DNA of 64,000 nucleotides from a virus (lineage: Duplodnaviria > Caudoviricetes), in IMG/VR virus record IMGVR_UViG_3300044652_000025, positions 32,001 to 96,000 of that record; one strand, written 5' to 3'. Every line of letters starts with the position of its first letter. The stretch's first letter is position 1. The notes beneath the pieces were generated by a model, which was given only the letters and a program-made list of their open reading frames with translations, made no database searches and was not told where the DNA came from. A program made the position numbers and the translations under genes. Of this stretch, positions 25,994-33,175 are shown one piece after another.

Positions 25994-26701
25994 TTATCGG
26001 GCAAAGATGAGGAGCACCTCCGCCTCGGCCCGGGACTCGTGGTTGGCACCGCGCCTCATCCTGGGGGTGACGATCTCGTGGCGGGCGATGAGCGTGAAGC
26101 CGATCGACTCGCAGATCGATCGATGGGTCTCGACGACGGGCTCTCTCCGGCGCTGACCGCGGTGGGTCCGGTAGCAGTCGCTGACGTTGAGGACGAACGT
26201 CCCCGACCGGGTGAGGGGATCGTAGGGCCGCAGTACCCGATAGACCTCCTGCCAGGCGGCGTCGTGGAAGCGCCAGTAGGCGGGCTGCCAGCAGTAGAGG
26301 GTGCCGCTGTTGGCGGGATCCAGGAGCCGGGTCTCGTCGCCGGTCATCCGCCGGAGGTCGTGGGTGTAGCTCCGGCGGTGGGAGCCGTCCTTGGCCATGT
26401 GGGAGTCGGACATCCTGTTGCCGAACACCGGGCTCACCATGACCGCGTCGATGCTCTCGTCCTCGAAGGGGAGGGCCAGGGCGTTGCCCACCCGGGTGTG
26501 GGGGTGACAGGCCGCCCACTCCGGCTCGATCTCGATACCGATGGTCTCCCGCCCGGCCTGGGCCAGGTCATGGACGCGTCCGATGCCCGCCATGGGGTCG
26601 AGGACGACGCCGGTGTCGGGGAGGATCTGGTGGTTCGCGATGAAGCGGAGGATGGCCTGGCTGTACGGCGCCGGGTGGATGGGCTTGGTGGCGGTCGTCA
26701 T
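25994..26701 (-). CDS. SAM-dependent DNA amino-methyltransferase-like protein
   Basis: VLDPMAGIG, GIEIE, GNALALPF, SPVF in place of SPPY. Confidence 0.75.
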   Translation of the reverse strand: MTTATKPIHPAPYSQAILRFIANHQILPDTGVVLDPMAGIGRVHDLAQAGRETIGIEIEPEWAACHPHTRVGNALALPFEDESIDAVMVSPVFGNRMSDSHMAKDGSHRRSYTHDLRRMTGDETRLLDPANSGTLYCWQPAYWRFHDAAWQEVYRVLRPYDPLTRSGTFVLNVSDCYRTHRGQRRREPVVETHRSICESIGFTLIARHEIVTPRMRRGANHESRAEAEVLLIFAR

Positions 26702-28719
26702 CGTCTCCTCCGGGCCGGTGACGTCGGCATCCCGGGCCTGCGCCTGCCCTTGCCGAAGCCCGAGAGGGCATCGTGGGTCTCGGTCTGCTGGCCACTGTGG
26801 GGCAGGCCACCCTGGGCGGTCCCTCCCACCGGTAGCTCGGCCAGGGTCTTGCCCAGGAAGGCCGCGATCTCGGTGCCGATGAGTTCGTAGGTGCAGATGG
26901 CCAGGCAGTCACTCACGTCTTTCGTTTGTACCGGTCCTGAGGTGGGGTGGTCAACCTTGTTTGTTCCCGCCTCCTGGAGGAAGGTCAACTCCAGGTCCGC
27001 CAGTTCGTGATACGGAGCATGGACGAGTCCCAATCCCAAGGCCGTTTTAAATGTTTCATACGTCTTCCAGTTCAAAGGACCAGTAGCGTCCCGCTCGTAG
27101 ATGGTAACCCGCTTCGGGTAGTTAGCGCTACGGGCGTGCTTACGGAGACGCTGGATCAAAGCCACAGAGTTCCACTGGTCGAAGGACAATTCGTTCGGCA
27201 TGAAGGCGTCCATGTCGACGATGATGTCGTCGGCGATGGCGTCGTAGTCGATCTCGTGGTTCTCGTAGTCACCCGGCAGCCAGGCGTGGATCTTGTCGAA
27301 GACGACGTGCGGGAGACCGCGGTCGTCGTGCCCGGCGACGTGGGCGATGGCCCAGCCGAAGTTGGCGCCGCTCTTGGACGGGTCGCCGTGGGCTCGGTAG
27401 GTCCGACTCAGGATCCCTTGGTGCTGCATCGTCAGGACGTCGCTCTCGGTCGGCCAGGGCTTCCACATGTCAGCGATCCGGTCCGGCCGGAGGTACGCGT
27501 CCAAGACGCTGGCCCAATGAGCGCGCCGCTCGACGGCGAACGTTTCAGGATTGGCAGCTTCTAACCGCTGCATCTCGGCGTCGAAGGTCTGGACCGCGTT
27601 GCGCAGGGCCGGGAAGAAGATCGGCCGCGACACCTGGGGGACGGCGTCGCGGATGTGGGCCGGGGGTGGGATCACCCGCTCCGGCCGGGCCTCCAGCCGG
27701 TGGTGAGGATCCGCGGTGCGCTCCCAGTCAACGTAGGTGTCCCAGCTTGCCAACTGGGCCATGAAGAGGGCCGGGAAGCTCGGCTTGCCGTCCTCATCGT
27801 GCTGGAGCGCCTTGCTGTAGTTGTCGAAGAACGCCCCCAGCCGCTGCCACGGCGACGACGCCTCCCACAGGAAGCCCCACTGCTGGAACTGGTCGAGGGA
27901 CGGGACGGCCGACTCGTAGACCTCGCTGGCGTCGGCCTTGGCCACGGCCCGGACGACGTGCGCCATCTCATCGAAGAACAACATCGCGCTGGCCGGGCCT
28001 CGGGCGGCCATCGTCGTTGCCTCTCTGGCCTCGATGATGAAGGTGGCCATGTCGGCCTCGGTCCCGATGCCTCGGTCGTGGCGGTCGAGCATCCTGATGA
28101 AGTCGTGCGGGGCGTAGACGGTGAAGCTCTCCCCCAGGACCCGGCTGATGTAGGGAGCGAAGCACGGCGCCCCGACGATGACGTTGTTCAAGTCCTTCCA
28201 CTGATGCGCTCGGGCCTGCTCCCGCTTACCGGCGAAGGCCATGGTGGCGATCTGCTTGTCGCGGTCGATTCCGAAGTGACCTTGCGGGTCTCCGAGCGAC
28301 AGGTAGTTCCACAAGACGTACGACCCGGCCAGGGCACCGAGGTAGCCCTTGCCGCCACGTCGACCGATGGGCAGGACCACCTCTCTGAACCACTTCCGGC
28401 CCTCGGCCTTGTTGATCTCGATCCGCTCGAAAATGTCAACAACGAGACCGTTGTTGCCCTCGCCCCGTTCGTCAGCCGACTCCCGGAACTTCGTCGTCCA
28501 TTCGTCAACGACCTCGTAGTCGTAGTCGGTCAGCAGGTCGTCACGAAGGAAAATCAACTTCAACAATGTGGCTTGCCTCGGGTACAGCGTCCGGCCCAAA
28601 TATGCGTCCGAGAGAATGAACTCAATCGGGTCCGGGACCTGAGCCTCAAATCCCGCGACGAGTTCAAAGACCCGCAGGGGGTCGAGGTCGGGCATGAATC
28701 GTCGGGTCCTGGCGGGCAT
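26698..28719 (-). CDS. terL: terminase large subunit
   Basis: YPRQ, GRRGGKG Walker A, LFFDE Walker B, HGDP / FDQWN / KDVSD RNaseH-type nuclease residues. Confidence 0.88.
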   Translation of the reverse strand: MPARTRRFMPDLDPLRVFELVAGFEAQVPDPIEFILSDAYLGRTLYPRQATLLKLIFLRDDLLTDYDYEVVDEWTTKFRESADERGEGNNGLVVDIFERIEINKAEGRKWFREVVLPIGRRGGKGYLGALAGSYVLWNYLSLGDPQGHFGIDRDKQIATMAFAGKREQARAHQWKDLNNVIVGAPCFAPYISRVLGESFTVYAPHDFIRMLDRHDRGIGTEADMATFIIEAREATTMAARGPASAMLFFDEMAHVVRAVAKADASEVYESAVPSLDQFQQWGFLWEASSPWQRLGAFFDNYSKALQHDEDGKPSFPALFMAQLASWDTYVDWERTADPHHRLEARPERVIPPPAHIRDAVPQVSRPIFFPALRNAVQTFDAEMQRLEAANPETFAVERRAHWASVLDAYLRPDRIADMWKPWPTESDVLTMQHQGILSRTYRAHGDPSKSGANFGWAIAHVAGHDDRGLPHVVFDKIHAWLPGDYENHEIDYDAIADDIIVDMDAFMPNELSFDQWNSVALIQRLRKHARSANYPKRVTIYERDATGPLNWKTYETFKTALGLGLVHAPYHELADLELTFLQEAGTNKVDHPTSGPVQTKDVSDCLAICTYELIGTEIAAFLGKTLAELPVGGTAQGGLPHSGQQTETHDALSGFGKGRRRPGMPTSPARRRR

Positions 28720-28740: not shown

Positions 28741-28767
28741 CGGTCGAGGGCTTCATACCCTCGACCG
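28741..28767 (-). terminator. intrinsic terminator closing the RAMP-array operon
   Basis: 10-bp perfect stem CGGTCGAGGG/CCCTCGACCG followed by TTTCACTT on minus strand. Confidence 0.85.
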
Positions 28768-28778
28768 CTCCACCCATG

Positions 28779-29333
28779 ACTGCCATGCCGAACTCGAACC
28801 TGACGAGCATCGCCGCGCCAAGCCCCGCCGACCCACGCCTTGACTGCCGAGTCGAGACCAGCCTACGCCCGCCTAACCGCGGCGAACCCAGCCCTGACTG
28901 CCGAGCCATTCCACGTCCAGACACGCCGTGCCATGACTGCCGCGGCACGACCCGCCTCTCCTAGCCTACGCGTGCCTCACCTCTCCGAGGCTGCCGGGCC
29001 AGGCCCAACCATCGCTGGTCAAGCCCAGCCAAGCCGCACCCTGACTGCCTCGCCCTAACGGGCCATGCCTGTCCATGCACCTCCTCAACGGGCCGTACCT
29101 TGCCACTGCTGCCAGGCCAACGCCTGCCGTGATGTACCAAGCCCTGCCGAGACGAGACCGTCCCCTCCACACCGCTACTGCCCTGACCTACCGGGCCTAG
29201 CCTCTACACGCCCGTCCTAGCCATTGCTGGCGAGCCGAGCCGAACCGCTCCATGACCTTGCGCACTTGCCCTGCCATACCAAGACTGCCGAGCCTTGCCG
29301 CGGCCTGCCTAGCCTCACCAAACCGAGGCTGCC
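28779..29333 (-). ncRNA. guide-RNA array 2: 10 units of GGCA+(GGY-like NN)n
   Basis: Delimiter spacings (+ strand order) 64,54,39,54,54,64,69,49,58,44; 5-nt periodicity; no credible ORF. Confidence 0.85.
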
Positions 29334-29337
29334 ATTC

Positions 29338-29364
29338 ACCGGGGCCGGTGGCTCCGACCCCGGT
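29338..29364 (-). other. RNA hairpin between accessory gene and array 2
   Basis: 11-bp stem whose one mismatch is a G-U pair only on the minus-strand transcript. Confidence 0.7.
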
Positions 29365-29370
29365 CGCTGG

Positions 29371-29871
29371 CTAGACCGCCTCGGCCTCTCCGTCGTCGTC
29401 GTCGCGGTCGATGTCATCGAGCGCGGCCCAGACTCCGGCCAGAGCACTGAGGTGCCGGTACCGGCGCCGCAGAGCCTGGAGGGCGACCAACGCATCTTTG
29501 AGCATCTGATTTCTCAGATCCTCGCGGTCGACCACCGTCTGAGTGTTGGTGTAGCCACGGTCACCGTCCTTCCGGACCGAGACGAAGGCGACGATGGGTT
29601 CGTCACTGCCCTCGACCACGATGCGGATGTCTCTGATGATCCGGCGAGCCTGACTCAGCCAATACTGCTCGGCGGCGTGGTTTTTGTCCCACCCACGCCA
29701 GTCGGCCATGTTGTGCAACGGCGAGTTGCGCTTCTTGGCCTCGGCTACCAACGCGTGCGGGGTGCAGACACCGTCGCGGTCCTCGATCTTCTTGATCTCG
29801 CCGTAGACGATGTTGGCGTCGACACCATGGCTCTGCTTCCACGACACGAACGCTGTCGGTTCTCCACTCAT
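29371..29871 (-). CDS. accessory protein of the RAMP-array system, 166 aa
   Basis: AAAGGAGG RBS; TP..LV..A...SPLH...W....AAEQY.L.QARRII motif; sits between the two arrays. Confidence 0.85.
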   Translation of the reverse strand: MSGEPTAFVSWKQSHGVDANIVYGEIKKIEDRDGVCTPHALVAEAKKRNSPLHNMADWRGWDKNHAAEQYWLSQARRIIRDIRIVVEGSDEPIVAFVSVRKDGDRGYTNTQTVVDREDLRNQMLKDALVALQALRRRYRHLSALAGVWAALDDIDRDDDDGEAEAV

Positions 29872-29893
29872 TTTTCAATCACCTCCTTTCGAT

Positions 29894-30929
29894 CCTGCCG
29901 TGACAAGCCAAACCGATCCGGGCCAAGCCCAAACGGGCCTAACCGCGCCAAGCCACGACTGCCGTTACCAACCCGGACCTGCCTGGCCGAACCTGACCGG
30001 GACGAGCCTTGCCTGGACTGGCGAGGCTTGCCGGGCCGTAACACGACTAGACCGGCCTATCCCTGCCCTGACTGCCATGCCTAAACCTGCCCTGGCTTGC
30101 CATGACGACCTAGCCCTACCACTGCTGCCGTGACCAGCCTGGCCGGTCCACGACGCTCCTAGCCGAGCCGTACCTTGCCTCGTCTGCCACGCCCTGCGAA
30201 GCCATCGCTTGCCCATCCTGACCATGGCTGCCGAGCCGGGACCGTCCCAAGCCGGGCACACCTAGCCACTCCATGACTGCCAAACCGGGACCTGCCTGGC
30301 CTGGACACACCTGGCCGAGCCGACCCGCACCTTGCCACTGCTGCCATGACGAACCGCTCCATGCCGTTGCGTGCCGCGACCTGCCAAGCCTTGGCGAGGC
30401 TGCCGAGACCTGACTGGCGACGCCAAGCCGGGCCTGGACATCCCGCGCAACGCCCTGACTCGACTGCCCTGCCAAACCCATCCGGGCCGTGACATGCCAC
30501 CCGAGCCGTGCCTGGGCTGCCGTGCCGCACCTGACCTCGACGGGACCAGACCATCCTGGCCCAGCCAAGCGCAGACCCGCCTCGACTGCCCTACCTCGCC
30601 AAGCCCTGCCTCGGCCCGACCCGGAGATCCAGGCCGAGGCTGGCTGGCCACACCGTGCCTCGACGCTGCGAGACATGCACCGCCTAGCCCATCCTCTACT
30701 GCCATGACCGGCCATGCGTTGCCACGGCGAGCCTTGGCCGGACCGGACCTGACGATCCAAGCCCAACCATGGCTGCCGCTCCACTGCTGCCCTGACAAGC
30801 CTTGGCTCGACGTGCCCCTGCGGGAGTCGCCGGGCCAAGCCACTGCTGCCATGCCGTGACCCGCCATGACATACCGGGGCGCACACCGCCCATACATGAC
30901 CGGGCGAGCCGAGCCATGCCGTGTCTGCC
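29894..30929 (-). ncRNA. guide-RNA array 1: 18 units of GGCA+(GGY-like NN)n
   Basis: Delimiter spacings (+ strand order) 64,59,54,53,59,44,49,64,59,64,53,69,54,59,74,14,59,79. Confidence 0.88.
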
Positions 30930-30954: not shown

Positions 30955-31593
30955 CTAGTTGCTGACCTGGAACATTCCGTACGAACCGGACGCCGACTTC
31001 GGCGCCGACGGCCGCCACTCACCAACCCCACCGAGACCGGCGGCGTCGACCAGAGCGAAGACCGACGAGGCGTCGAGCATGTGCGGCAGGTACGTGACCT
31101 TGAGGATGGCCGACCACGGCCAGAAGCCAGCCCGGTAGCGGATGTCAGCGACACCCGACTCCAACCTGACCATGTCCTCACGCATGTGAGGCTCGGCCGA
31201 AATCGCCACCAGGTCGGTCCCCTCCTCGGGGTTGATGAAGAGGGCGGCCTTGGCCTGGACCATGGTCAAGCCGTCGAAGTGCCTCACGGCGCCGACGAGA
31301 GCGGCCTTGAAGGCGGTGGCGGGGATGGCGCAGCGGCCGTCGGGGAGCCGGTAGATGGACGACTCGTAGTCGGCCTGCGGGTCCTTCGGCTCCTTCTTCG
31401 GCTTGGTGCCGCGAGCCATCTGGCTCTCCAACATCATTCTCTTGGCCTTCTCGGACCAGCGGTGGGTGATCAACTCGGAGGTGCCCTCGATCGGGACCTC
31501 GATGGTGACGCGCTCCAGGCGCTTCAGGACGACGGTGGGACCCTCGGTGACGCCAGCGACCTTCCCGGCGCCATTGGTTTTGGTCATTGCCAT
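30955..31593 (-). CDS. Cas7/RAMP-like RNA-binding protein (Vipr-like), 212 aa
   Basis: IEGTSELITH first strand, IPATAFKAAL helix, C-terminal Gly loop GLGGVGEWRP...GSYGMF; ATG 31593 with CAGGAG RBS. Confidence 0.8.
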   Translation of the reverse strand: MAMTKTNGAGKVAGVTEGPTVVLKRLERVTIEVPIEGTSELITHRWSEKAKRMMLESQMARGTKPKKEPKDPQADYESSIYRLPDGRCAIPATAFKAALVGAVRHFDGLTMVQAKAALFINPEEGTDLVAISAEPHMREDMVRLESGVADIRYRAGFWPWSAILKVTYLPHMLDASSVFALVDAAGLGGVGEWRPSAPKSASGSYGMFQVSN

Positions 31594-31633
31594 TGGTTCT
31601 GCTCCTGTAGTCGGAAGTGAACTGTTGCAAGTA

Positions 31634-31661
31634 ACCTTAGCACGTATAACGGGTCCGTCAA
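31634..31661 (-). promoter_or_regulatory. promoter of RAMP-array operon TTGACG-N16-TAAGGT with extended -10 TG
   Basis: 40 nt upstream of start codon; TGCTAAGGT shared with promoter at 37207. Confidence 0.7.
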
Positions 31662-31735
31662 CCGGGGTCCTTCGGACATATGGGCGCGAAAATGCCCCCT
31701 CCACTGGGGAAGGGGGCGAGATCCTGTCTTCTCTG

Positions 31736-32194: not shown

Positions 32195-33175
32195 TTACTT
32201 CTTCTTGCGGCTCTTCGGGATCGGGAGCTTCTTGACGTCGCTCCCGGCGATGATCCCGGCGTTGTAGTGCTTGGCCAGGGCGTCGGCGATGGCCCGCGGC
32301 TTGCTGGTGTAGTGCTCCTTCGAGTTGCGGATCGGGTCGGCCAGCGCCGATGGCGGCCACTGCCGGAGCGTCACGATGAGGTGACCCTCGTCGAACAGCG
32401 GGGTCTTGACCAGGCCGCCCTGCTCGTCGACCGACAGCTTGGTGTAGCGCCGGACGAACTCCCCGACGGACTGGAGCGTGAGGTACGCCCAGGCGTCCGG
32501 ATACTGCTGCTGGACCCAGGACTTGTTGATGACCCGGAAGACCGTGGCCAGCCCGTCCTCGCCGATGGTGGCGTACATCTTGCGGAGCGCCTTGACGGCG
32601 GTGATGCCACCGAGACCCACGGTCAGGCCGTTGTCGGAGGCGATCCGGTCGACGGCCACCGCCTCGGGGTCACCGGCCTTGAGGTCGGTCTTGTAGAGGT
32701 CCGTCGGCGAGAAGCTCGTCCGGCCCCGGTGGATGGTGCCGGTCTGGTTGGCCTCGGCACCGACGCTCATACCCTTGTGGACCCAGCAGGGCACCTGCAT
32801 GTCCGGGTTGATGATCTGGGCCACGATGGTCCGGTGCTGGCCCTCGGGCGACCAGAGGCTGGCGTCGGGACGCTCGTTGACGTCGATGGGCTCGAAGGCG
32901 TAGGGGTCGAAGTTCCTGATCAGATCCTTGGCCTTCTTCAGGTTGATTCGCCGCTGGTAGCTCTTGTCGACGTTGATGTCCCCGGCCCGGACGTAGCGGA
33001 GTTCGCCGGTGAGCTTCATCTCCGCCAGTTCCTGGCGGCGCTCCTCGGGGATCTCCTTCTCGTACCAGTCGCGCAGGGCCTTGAGCTTGTCCTCCTCGGA
33101 CAGTTCGGTCCGGGGGCGCCTCGGGGTGGGAGTCTCCTCCTCGTCCGCGAGGTCGAGGTCGTCGTCTTCACTCAT
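32195..33175 (-). CDS. ParB/Srx-like N-terminal domain protein
   Basis: VDKSYQR..., IDVNER, EGQHR motif. Confidence 0.8.
   Translation of the reverse strand: MSEDDDLDLADEEETPTPRRPRTELSEEDKLKALRDWYEKEIPEERRQELAEMKLTGELRYVRAGDINVDKSYQRRINLKKAKDLIRNFDPYAFEPIDVNERPDASLWSPEGQHRTIVAQIINPDMQVPCWVHKGMSVGAEANQTGTIHRGRTSFSPTDLYKTDLKAGDPEAVAVDRIASDNGLTVGLGGITAVKALRKMYATIGEDGLATVFRVINKSWVQQQYPDAWAYLTLQSVGEFVRRYTKLSVDEQGGLVKTPLFDEGHLIVTLRQWPPSALADPIRNSKEHYTSKPRAIADALAKHYNAGIIAGSDVKKLPIPKSRKKK

What the first reader, a model, noticed from the sequence alone, without database searches (positions are those of the whole stretch)
28779..30929. Gapped, wobble-skipping code: NN dinucleotides spell conserved protein motifs
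Seen by manual decoding (+ strand NN as codon positions 1-2, ambiguous residues chosen by me). 30792-30850: L-N-F-S-V-P-G-S-G-K-T (helicase Walker A). 30077-30129: I-Y-L-L-F-I-D-Y-L-T (DnaB-like Walker B). 30233-30281: D-G-R-H-R-T (ParB/Srx). 30522-30590: ends W-H-N-H-P-S (JAB/MPN-like). 30023-30076: E-L-G-V-T-Y-R-Y-L and 29183-29231: L-L-G-Y-S-T-R-Y-I (HTH). 29964-30022: V-H-R-L-C-E-W-G-E-L (excisionase-like HTH). 30591-30644: L-S-K-L-S-P-P-E-R-E (sigma-r4-like). All read in one orientation, so the RNA is complementary to the coding strand. Inference: pairing two bases and skipping the third makes targeting immune to wobble mutations; likely targets are rival phages, mobile elements or host defence genes.
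Basis: partly seen in the sequence, partly recalled or inferred. Interest (0 to 1): 0.95.

Follow-up and report, generated by a model that had tools for sequence, protein, structure and literature searches.

The report
Phage VIPR gapped guide-RNA arrays

Summary
Window 28785-29333 and 29900-30929 are two non-coding arrays with a strict 5-base period. They hold 31 units of N-N-G-C-C pentamers, each unit closed by a 4-base TGCC. They sit in a minus-strand operon with a Cas7-like gene and a small partner gene.

This matches the published VIPR system (Vipr protein plus vrRNA of GGY/NN pentamers). In that system the NN dinucleotides pair with DNA and skip every third base, usually the codon wobble base.

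In the phage's own genome only a target period of 3 gives outliers. They fall in its terminase, vipr and vap genes, in frame, and relatives' copies match better.

Of the eight decoded motifs:
- One holds: the helicase Walker A.
- Two hit other families than proposed: a GHKL ATPase beside Druantia DruA, and Vsr on the opposite strand.
- Five found no support.

All three cellular targets lie in restriction or defence-type gene clusters. That hints at counter-defence, which is unproven.

This scan has already reported VIPR loci in at least 108 other genomes. Verdict: a new member of a known kind.

The parts
30955..31593 (-). vipr: Cas7-like RAMP protein. It is 212 aa from the start used by the database protein P0001; the longest ORF runs to 31704 (249 aa).
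   Evidence: The family has 5437 homologues. The AlphaFold2 model has pLDDT 85.8. Foldseek against PDB gives 92 hits at E<=1e-3, and every row listed is a Cas7-type RAMP (Csm3, Cmr4, type VII Cas7), with E about 3e-6 and TM 0.45-0.49. In 55 of 60 IMG/VR loci with a homologue, a co-oriented G-rich pentamer array lies beside it.
29900..30929 (-). vrRNA array 2: 20 staggered units lying between vipr and vap. The RNA sense is the minus strand, as GGY-NN pentamers.
29371..29871 (-). vap: the accessory protein, 166 aa.
   Evidence: It matches phrog_15946. A homologue sits directly downstream of vipr in mycobacteriophages, Gordonia phages and at least 27 fetched loci. The model has pLDDT 88. There is no significant PDB match; the weak rows are mostly winged-helix DNA binders.
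28785..29333 (-). vrRNA array 1: 11 staggered units lying downstream of vap.
28742..28766 (-). Perfect 9-bp stem-loop between array 1 and the terminase start codon (28719). It may mark the 3' end of the array transcript.
   Evidence: Read directly from the sequence. It fails the terminator consensus scan because it has no T-run.
30851..30929 (-). Guide unit of 15 NN that matches the conserved VPIxGxPxMREDMV motif of vipr genes.
   Evidence: It scores 24/30 on the phage's own gene at 31168-31212, in frame, and 26/30 on L050. It fits 13 of 15 residues in P0027, P0057 and P0102 against 10 of 15 in the phage's own protein.
29900..29963 (-). Guide unit of 12 NN that resembles the phage's own vap at 29542-29577.
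   Evidence: It scores 19/24; 8 of 1000 shuffles reach that value. By coordinate arithmetic the hit is in the ORF's frame: 29871 minus 29577 is 294, a multiple of 3.
28785..28848 (-). Guide unit of 12 NN that matches the conserved large-terminase motif M-x-RLE-x-ANPETF.
   Evidence: It scores 21/24 on the phage's own terL at 27538-27573, in frame. It scores 22/24 on a relative's terL in L121. It fits 11 of 12 residues in five homologues.
30023..30076 (-). Guide unit of 10 NN that matches DDFGVTYRYLL of a GHKL ATPase gene.
   Evidence: There are 24 exact hits in genome contigs, all in frame and all in one family. The family carries HATPase_c_3 and is MzaB-like. The gene order GHKL, orf216, GHKL, DruA recurs in 8 of the 24 loci. 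Viral contigs holds no exact hit.
30522..30590 (-). Guide unit of 13 NN whose reverse complement matches DGCFWHxCPEH of vsr genes.
   Evidence: There are 22 hits with at most 3 mismatches in 21 of 401 Actinomycetota genomes, the best at 25/26, and the backwards control gives 0. The hits are in frame in 140-238 aa ORFs on the other strand. Two of these ORFs scanned (L109, L112) match PF03852 Vsr. The neighbours include a C5 methylase, a restriction endonuclease and an HNH endonuclease.
30792..30850 (-). Guide unit of 11 NN that matches the Walker A motif of an SNF2-family helicase.
   Evidence: It scores 20/22 (10 of 11 dinucleotides) on ANFSVPGSGKT, in frame, in G038. The protein matches PF00176 and is ZorD/DpdE-like. 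It lies in an operon with a DUF1156-type methylase and a NOV_C nuclease-like gene, beside an integrase.

Best explanation
The region is a VIPR (Viral Interference Programmable Repeat) locus of a 151 kb actinophage-like virus. The operon runs on the minus strand in the order vipr (Cas7-like RAMP), array 2, vap, array 1.

Inferred from the published VIPR mechanism, not shown here:
- The arrays are transcribed and cut into vrRNAs of roughly 7-15 pentamers, 5'-GGY-NN-3'.
- Vipr protomers polymerise along each vrRNA, hold the GGY triplets and present the NN dinucleotides.
- The NN dinucleotides pair with one strand of double-stranded DNA while every third target base is skipped. The bound gene is then silenced.

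Because the skipped base usually falls on the codon wobble position, a guide spells a protein motif and synonymous mutations do not let the target escape.

In this phage the units abut. A 4-base GGCA takes the place of a pentamer, so the register slips by one base per unit. This is the published 'staggered' array form, with no 3' tail.

Shown here:
- The periodic anatomy.
- The RAMP fold of the neighbouring protein.
- The conserved vipr-array-vap linkage.
- The period-3, in-frame matches.

Likely targets are the terminase, vipr and vap genes of related phages, and conserved motifs of restriction or defence-type genes (GHKL ATPase, Vsr, SNF2 helicase).
For: - Anatomy.
- RAMP fold of the 212 aa protein.
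- Linkage: 55 of 60 loci holding a homologue carry a co-oriented GGY-NN array, and TGCC is the delimiter in 379 parsed units. The vipr-vap pair is conserved in mycobacteriophages and Gordonia phages, each with an array nearby.
- Skip rule at this locus: in the phage's own genome only period 3 gives outliers, reached by 0 of 1000 shuffles for two units, and the hits are in frame.
- Outside targets: 24 exact in-frame hits for unit 30023, and 22 hits against 0 for the control for unit 30522.
- Published mechanism and the staggered array form: bioRxiv 10.64898/2026.04.26.720920 and .720927.
Against: - There are no RNA data for this phage, so transcription, processing sites and the true unit boundaries are inferred.
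- Most units found no target. Of those tested outside the phage's own genome, 30704, 29964, 30591, 29183, 30077 and 30233 gave nothing or only random hits.
- In a 1.09 Mb set of related loci the excess at period 3 is modest: 23 units reach 85% or more, against 9-11 at other periods.
- The published type II 3' tail is absent.
- Three guides match the phage's own genes at 79-88% of NN bases. The discovery paper reported no self-hits at 80% or above in the clades it analysed.
Confidence: 0.92

Rival explanations
1. The three guides that resemble the phage's own genes (terL, vipr, vap) are autoregulators. Partial pairing would let the VIPR complex damp or time its own operon and the terminase gene, rather than attack relatives.
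For: Each self-like unit sits at an array end beside the gene it resembles. The self matches reach 79-88% of NN bases, which is at or above the 80% cut-off the discovery paper used to call a target.
Against: Relatives' genes fit better than the phage's own. The vipr guide scores 26/30 on L050 and fits 13 of 15 residues, against 24/30 and 10 of 15 on its own gene. The terL guide fits 11 of 12 dinucleotides in L121 against 9 of 12 on its own gene. The phage's own copies differ at exactly the positions that break pairing. The preprints report vrRNAs aimed at other VIPR systems, and say that perturbing NN pairing abolishes silencing.
Confidence: 0.2
2. The matches to GHKL, Vsr and SNF2 genes do not mean that host defence is silenced. 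The real targets would be homologues carried by rival mobile elements, or the matches reflect only that any guide spelling a very conserved motif collects many database hits.
For: - The SNF2 operon lies next to an integrase.
- The 24 GHKL hits are homologues of one another and so do not count as independent events. They come mostly from Alphaproteobacteria, whereas the phage's relatives are actinophages.
- The host is unknown.
Against: - All three cellular targets sit in restriction or defence-type clusters.
- The GHKL pattern is absent from viral contigs.
- The Vsr match occurs in 5% of the actinobacterial genomes sampled, with 0 control hits.
Confidence: 0.45
3. The arrays are not guide genes at all. 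They would be a pentanucleotide satellite, a G-quadruplex-prone structural DNA element, or a mis-called coding region.
For: GenBank annotates the equivalent array of Mycobacterium phage Donkeykong as a protein gene, gp48. GG runs every 5 bases could in principle form G-quadruplexes.
Against: - There is no 3-base periodicity.
- The two variable positions carry almost no information while three positions are conserved, which is not how a satellite looks.
- The arrays are strictly linked to, and co-oriented with, a RAMP gene in 55 of 60 loci.
- The NN strings hit real genes only at period 3 and in frame.
Confidence: 0.02

Closest known systems
VIPR systems (Vipr + vrRNA + vap): bioRxiv 10.64898/2026.04.26.720920 (discovery), 10.64898/2026.04.26.720927 (cryo-EM, triplex), 10.64898/2026.10.15.759431 (satellite competition)
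   Same: - A lone small RAMP protein of about 20 kDa with an accessory gene, encoded by a phage.
- Guide RNAs built of GGY/NN pentamers with hypervariable NN.
- Targets fit a one-base skip aligned to the codon wobble position, on either DNA strand.
- Some guides are aimed at other VIPR systems.
- The 'staggered arrays with 1-nt overlapping vrRNAs' of fig. S18 fit the n*5+4 units seen here.
   Different: - There is no conserved 3' tail or pseudoknot, unlike the characterised type II systems (SUSP1, P. fulva).
- The repertoire is very large, 31 units in two arrays.
- The setting is actinophage-like, which the main texts do not discuss. I found no 'Mycobacteri', 'Actino' or 'Gordonia' in the discovery paper, and its tables are not held.
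- Three guides lie within 79-88% of the phage's own genes.
- The type (I-VII) could not be assigned without the paper's data files.
Class 1 CRISPR-Cas backbone (Cas7: Csm3, Cmr4, type VII Cas7) with crRNA
   Same: The RAMP fold is shared (Foldseek E about 3e-6). A protein filament meters the guide at a fixed period and keeps some bases out of pairing.
   Different: - There is no repeat-spacer array, no cas1/cas2 and no other cas genes.
- The guide period is 5 with only 2 pairing bases, and the target period is 3.
- CRISPR uses a period of 6 in both strands, with 5 bases pairing.
TIGR-Tas tandem interspaced guide RNA arrays
   Same: These are short-period, non-CRISPR guide arrays found in phages. 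The 2026 language-model survey recovered them together with VIPR by their periodicity.
   Different: The period is 18 nt and the effector is a Nop-domain Tas protein with contiguous dual spacers. There is no RAMP protein and no gapped code.

Membership tests
VIPR | A Vipr protein, that is a small stand-alone RAMP (RRM core, G-loop, thumb), encoded next to the RNA genes | tested here: met
   The 212 aa model has pLDDT 85.8. All top Foldseek PDB hits are Cas7-type RAMPs, with probability 1.00 and E about 3e-6. There is no sequence match to any PDB chain. A direct comparison with a published Vipr structure was not possible.
VIPR | vrRNA built of tandem pentamers with a conserved GGY and a hypervariable NN | tested here: met
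   Read in RNA sense the pentamer is G(94%)-G/U(62/24%)-Y(83%)-N-N, and the NN positions carry 0.04-0.05 bits. The lag-5 periodicity is specific to the arrays.
VIPR | About 9-16 repeats per vrRNA | tested here: met
   Of the 31 units, 24 have at least 7 pentamers and 22 have at least 8, with a maximum of 15. The short ones (2-6) may be degenerate or mis-split. Processing sites are unknown.
VIPR | Targets follow the 1-nt skip rule, with the skipped base mostly on the codon wobble position | tested here: met
   In the phage's own genome only period 3 gives outliers among periods 2-6. All six identified targets are in codon frame (the vap site by coordinate arithmetic). This is computational evidence only.
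VIPR | An accessory vap gene in the locus | tested here: met
   A homologue of ORF166 lies directly downstream of vipr in at least 27 loci and in the annotated phages. Its fold is unassigned; the weak structural hits are winged-helix-like. Which of vap1-6 it is could not be determined.
VIPR | Linkage of the array to vipr holds across homologues | tested here: met
   In 55 of 60 IMG/VR loci a co-oriented G-rich array lies beside the gene, in most cases within about 1.5 kb.
VIPR type II (SUSP1 / P. fulva) | An invariant structured 3' tail (pseudoknot) after each repeat tract | tested here: not met
   The units abut, separated only by a 4-base GGCA. This fits the 'staggered' architecture of fig. 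S18 instead.
VIPR | vrRNAs are expressed, co-purify with Vipr, and the ribonucleoprotein binds dsDNA and represses transcription | not testable with these tools
This needs small-RNA sequencing, pull-down and reporter assays.
CRISPR-Cas | A repeat-spacer array with direct repeats of 20-40 nt, plus adaptation genes | tested here: not met
   Tandem Repeats Finder reports no long-period repeats. Rfam has no hit in the window. The neighbours are a terminase, a ParB-like gene and a methylase.

The most novel reading that the evidence does not exclude
Part of this phage's vrRNA repertoire may serve as RNA-guided counter-defence. These guides would spell invariant catalytic motifs of host restriction or defence genes and silence them during infection. 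The candidate targets are the first GHKL ATPase of a GHKL-orf216-GHKL-DruA cluster, Vsr within C5-methylase/restriction modules, and the SNF2 helicase of a DUF1156-methylase operon. The held VIPR preprint texts do not describe this target class. Earlier follow-ups of this scan have raised the same idea for other VIPR loci.
Probability: 0.3. Interest if true: 0.65.

Novelty: new member of a known kind. Interest (0 to 1): 0.35.

Why it matters
The finding adds a large staggered VIPR locus (31 units) from an actinophage-like virus. It also shows that the same vipr-array-vap module sits unrecognised in sequenced mycobacteriophages and Gordonia phages. In one of these, Donkeykong, the array is annotated as a protein gene.

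The locus gives concrete, testable guide-target pairs:
- Guides against relatives' terminase, vipr and vap genes, with the phage's own copies diverged at the pairing positions.
- Guides matching conserved motifs of restriction or defence-type genes.

If the second group is functional, VIPR would serve as a programmable anti-defence tool as well as a weapon between phages. The basic code is already published, so the finding confirms and extends it rather than discovering it.

Tried and rejected
**Annotation and similarity searches**
- Rfam found nothing in the window.
- Megablast of the locus against the phage collection found no match.
- No promoter or terminator consensus sites were found.
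- The search for related loci with ORF166 alone found no relative, and the search for homologous proteins with ORF166 found only itself. Its homologues were recovered by local tblastn instead.

**Exact-pattern scans that gave nothing useful**
- Unit 30522, 10 NN, in viral contigs: 0 hits.
- Unit 30792, 8-NN seed, in viral contigs: 19 hits, about the chance number, the best at 20/22 lying in no ORF (L009) and the best in a helicase gene 19/22, in a UvrD-like helicase.
- Unit 30233: one out-of-frame hit.
- Unit 29183: 0 hits.
- Unit 30077: one hit in an AT-rich contig, lying in no ORF.
- Units 29964 and 30591 in metagenome contigs: 0 hits each.

**Mismatch-tolerant searches of Actinomycetota genomes that gave nothing**
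- Unit 30704: 0 of 401 genomes.
- Unit 29964: 0 of 151 genomes, with 1 control hit.

**Other tests**
- No other unit matched the 8 kb around the GHKL targets.
- The cross-target test on 1.09 Mb of related loci gave only a modest period-3 excess.

**Readings rejected**
- That the arrays are coding sequence or a pentapeptide-repeat gene: there is no lag-3 signal.
- That the RNA acts on mRNA: the published mechanism binds dsDNA.

**Not available**
- The discovery paper's supplementary tables are not held, so the VIPR type could not be assigned.

One 3-mismatch Vsr hit lies in the unpublished genome G023. No claim in this report rests on it.
Full report
**What is there.** The window lies at 32001-96000 of a single-contig virus record of 151,490 bases. 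Between 28785 and 30929 there are two stretches, 28785-29333 and 29900-30929, with a strict 5-base period. Lag-5 autocorrelation is 0.44-0.46. There is no lag-3 signal, although the flanking genes show the usual lag 3, and no other place in the 64 kb has this signal.

An HMM parse gives pentamers N-N-G(68%)-C/A-C(94%) on the + strand. The first two positions carry almost no information. The pentamers group into 31 units of 2-15 pentamers, each closed by a 4-base TGCC or TGGC, so the register slips by one base per unit.

All neighbouring genes are on the minus strand. Their order is:
- a ParB-like gene;
- ORF249 (30955-31704);
- array 2;
- ORF166 (29371-29871);
- array 1;
- a perfect hairpin (28742-28766);
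- the large terminase (26698-28719).

Read in gene sense, the arrays are runs of GGY-NN.

**What it is.** A literature search on the anatomy found the answer. VIPR systems were described in 2026 preprints and consist of a small stand-alone RAMP protein (Vipr), an accessory gene (vap) and vrRNAs of 9-16 GGY/NN pentamers. The NN dinucleotides pair with double-stranded DNA while every third target base is skipped. That base is usually the codon wobble base, so synonymous mutations do not let the target escape. Cryo-EM shows Vipr protomers holding each GGY and presenting the NN. The paper lists seven types, among them 'staggered arrays' whose vrRNAs overlap by one base. That form fits the n*5+4 units seen here.

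**Membership tests.**
- ORF249, probably 212 aa in reality, belongs to a family with 5437 database relatives.
- Its AlphaFold2 model (pLDDT 85.8) matches Cas7-type RAMPs. These are Csm3, Cmr4 and type VII Cas7, with Foldseek E about 3e-6 and 92 hits at E<=1e-3.
- Of 60 IMG/VR loci encoding a homologue, 55 carry a co-oriented G-rich pentamer array beside the gene. TGCC is the delimiter in 379 parsed units.
- ORF166 homologues lie directly downstream of vipr in at least 27 loci and in annotated phages. Examples are Mycobacterium phage Donkeykong gp49/gp50 and Gordonia phage ODay gp19/gp20.
- In Donkeykong the array is annotated as the protein gene gp48. In ODay it fills the gap between gp19 and gp20.
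- ORF166 folds confidently but has no significant PDB match. The weak rows are mainly winged-helix DNA binders.
- The type II 3' tail is absent.
- Expression and binding could not be tested.

**Does the gapped code hold here?** I compared each unit's NN string with the phage's own genome, arrays masked, at target periods 2-6 and against shuffles. Only period 3 gives outliers:

| Unit | Score | Shuffles reaching it | Site in own genome |
|---|---|---|---|
| 28785 | 21/24 | 0 of 1000 | terL, 27538-27573 |
| 30851 | 24/30 | 0 of 1000 | vipr, 31168-31212 |
| 29900 | 19/24 | 8 of 1000 | vap, 29542-29577 |

All three sites are in codon frame on the sense strand, and each unit is the array-end unit next to that gene.

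Relatives' genes fit better than the phage's own:
- The vipr guide fits 13 of 15 residues of other Vipr proteins against 10 of 15 for its own. It scores 26/30 on L050.
- The terL guide fits the conserved M-x-RLE-x-ANPETF motif in 11 of 12 residues of five homologues. It scores 22/24 in L121.

[quoted passage not shown] It also suggests attack on related phages, with the phage's own copies diverged at the pairing positions. Autoregulation remains possible, because the self matches reach the 80% cut-off used in the paper.

**The eight decoded motifs.** The arithmetic of all eight decodings is correct. The database tests gave these results:
- **30792-30850 (Walker A).** One actinobacterial genome has ANFSVPGSGKT, 10 of 11 dinucleotides, in frame in an SNF2-family helicase. 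The claim is supported.
- **30023-30076 (proposed HTH).** The 10-NN pattern has 24 exact matches in one-genome-per-species contigs. My own estimate of the chance expectation is about 1, from collection size and uniform base composition. All hits are in frame on DDFGVTYRYLL of a GHKL ATPase carrying HATPase_c_3 and resembling MzaB. In 8 of the 24 loci this gene heads a GHKL-orf216-GHKL-DruA cluster. The motif is real, but it is not an HTH.
- **30522-30590 (proposed JAB/MPN).** With up to 3 mismatches it hits 21 of 401 Actinomycetota genomes, and the backwards control hits none. The real gene lies on the other strand. The reverse complement spells DGCFWHxCPEH of Vsr endonucleases, in frame. Three of the five vsr loci examined lie beside a C5 methylase; one of those also holds a restriction endonuclease, and a fourth locus holds an HNH endonuclease. 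An NNx pattern is still NNx when reverse-complemented. 'All in one orientation' is therefore not a rule, which fits the published targeting of dsDNA on either strand.
- **30077, 30233, 29183, 29964 and 30591.** These gave no hit or only random hits. A further unit, 30704, found nothing in 401 genomes. These assignments remain guesses.

**Reading of the targets.** Three targets are phage genes of relatives (terL, vipr, vap). This is the published theme of warfare between phages. The three cellular targets all sit in restriction or defence-type contexts:
- the DruA-linked GHKL cluster;
- Vsr within methylase/restriction modules;
- an SNF2 helicase in an operon with a DUF1156-type methylase and a NOV_C nuclease-like gene, beside an integrase.

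The GHKL pattern is absent from viral contigs. This hints at RNA-guided counter-defence, which the held preprint texts do not mention.

The caveats are serious:
- The host is unknown.
- The GHKL hits are homologues of one another and come mostly from Alphaproteobacteria, while the phage's relatives are actinophages.
- Such genes also travel on mobile elements.

I give this reading about 0.3.

**Verdict.** It is, however, the published VIPR code, and this scan has already reported VIPR loci in at least 108 other genomes. The locus is a new member of a known kind: a large staggered VIPR locus in an actinophage-like virus. It offers useful, testable guide-target pairs and shows that related modules are mis-annotated in public actinophage genomes.

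Noticed in passing
L001 5480-5866 (NC_051648.1 36870-37256, Mycobacterium phage Donkeykong gp48): A CDS annotated as 'hypothetical protein' is in fact a GGC-NN pentamer array lying immediately upstream of the vipr homologue gp49. The other mycobacteriophage records hit probably carry the same unrecognised VIPR module.
   Followed up: partly
L002 6583-6795 (MW534375.1, Gordonia phage ODay, gp19-gp20 gap): A small GGC-NN array fills the 213-base gap between the vipr homologue (gp19) and the vap homologue (gp20). This is the same gene order as in the window.
   Followed up: partly
window 29334-29370: A GC-rich inverted repeat (ACCGGGG ... CCCCGGT) lies between the stop codon of ORF166 and the first unit of array 1. 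It may be a processing or attenuation signal between vap and the second array.
   Followed up: no
L084 291-6849 and 7 further loci (L085, L087, L094, L098, L100, L103, L105): A conserved cluster in the order GHKL ATPase, 216-aa ORF, second GHKL ATPase, DruA (PADLOC DruA1, E 1.8e-281) recurs in Alphaproteobacteria and, in L094, a Comamonadaceae MAG. Weaker DruA-like matches lie near the target gene in a Tepidiformaceae MAG (L086), an Acidobacteriaceae MAG (L089) and an Actinomycetes MAG (L097). It looks like a Druantia-related defence module with two GHKL genes.
   Followed up: partly
window 25994-26701 and 32195-33175: A DNA methyltransferase gene lies beyond the terminase, and a ParB-like/DUF6551 gene lies upstream of vipr. 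It was not tested whether they belong functionally to the VIPR locus.
   Followed up: no
window 27547-27549 (within 27538-27573): In the phage's own terL target site the conserved Leu is encoded by TTA, while relatives L121 and L120 use CTC and TTG. This breaks one guide dinucleotide. It fits escape from its own guide, but it is a single case.
   Followed up: partly
L120 13539-13841: A relative sharing the terminase clade encodes a WhiB-family protein. This supports an actinobacterial host for this phage lineage.
   Followed up: no
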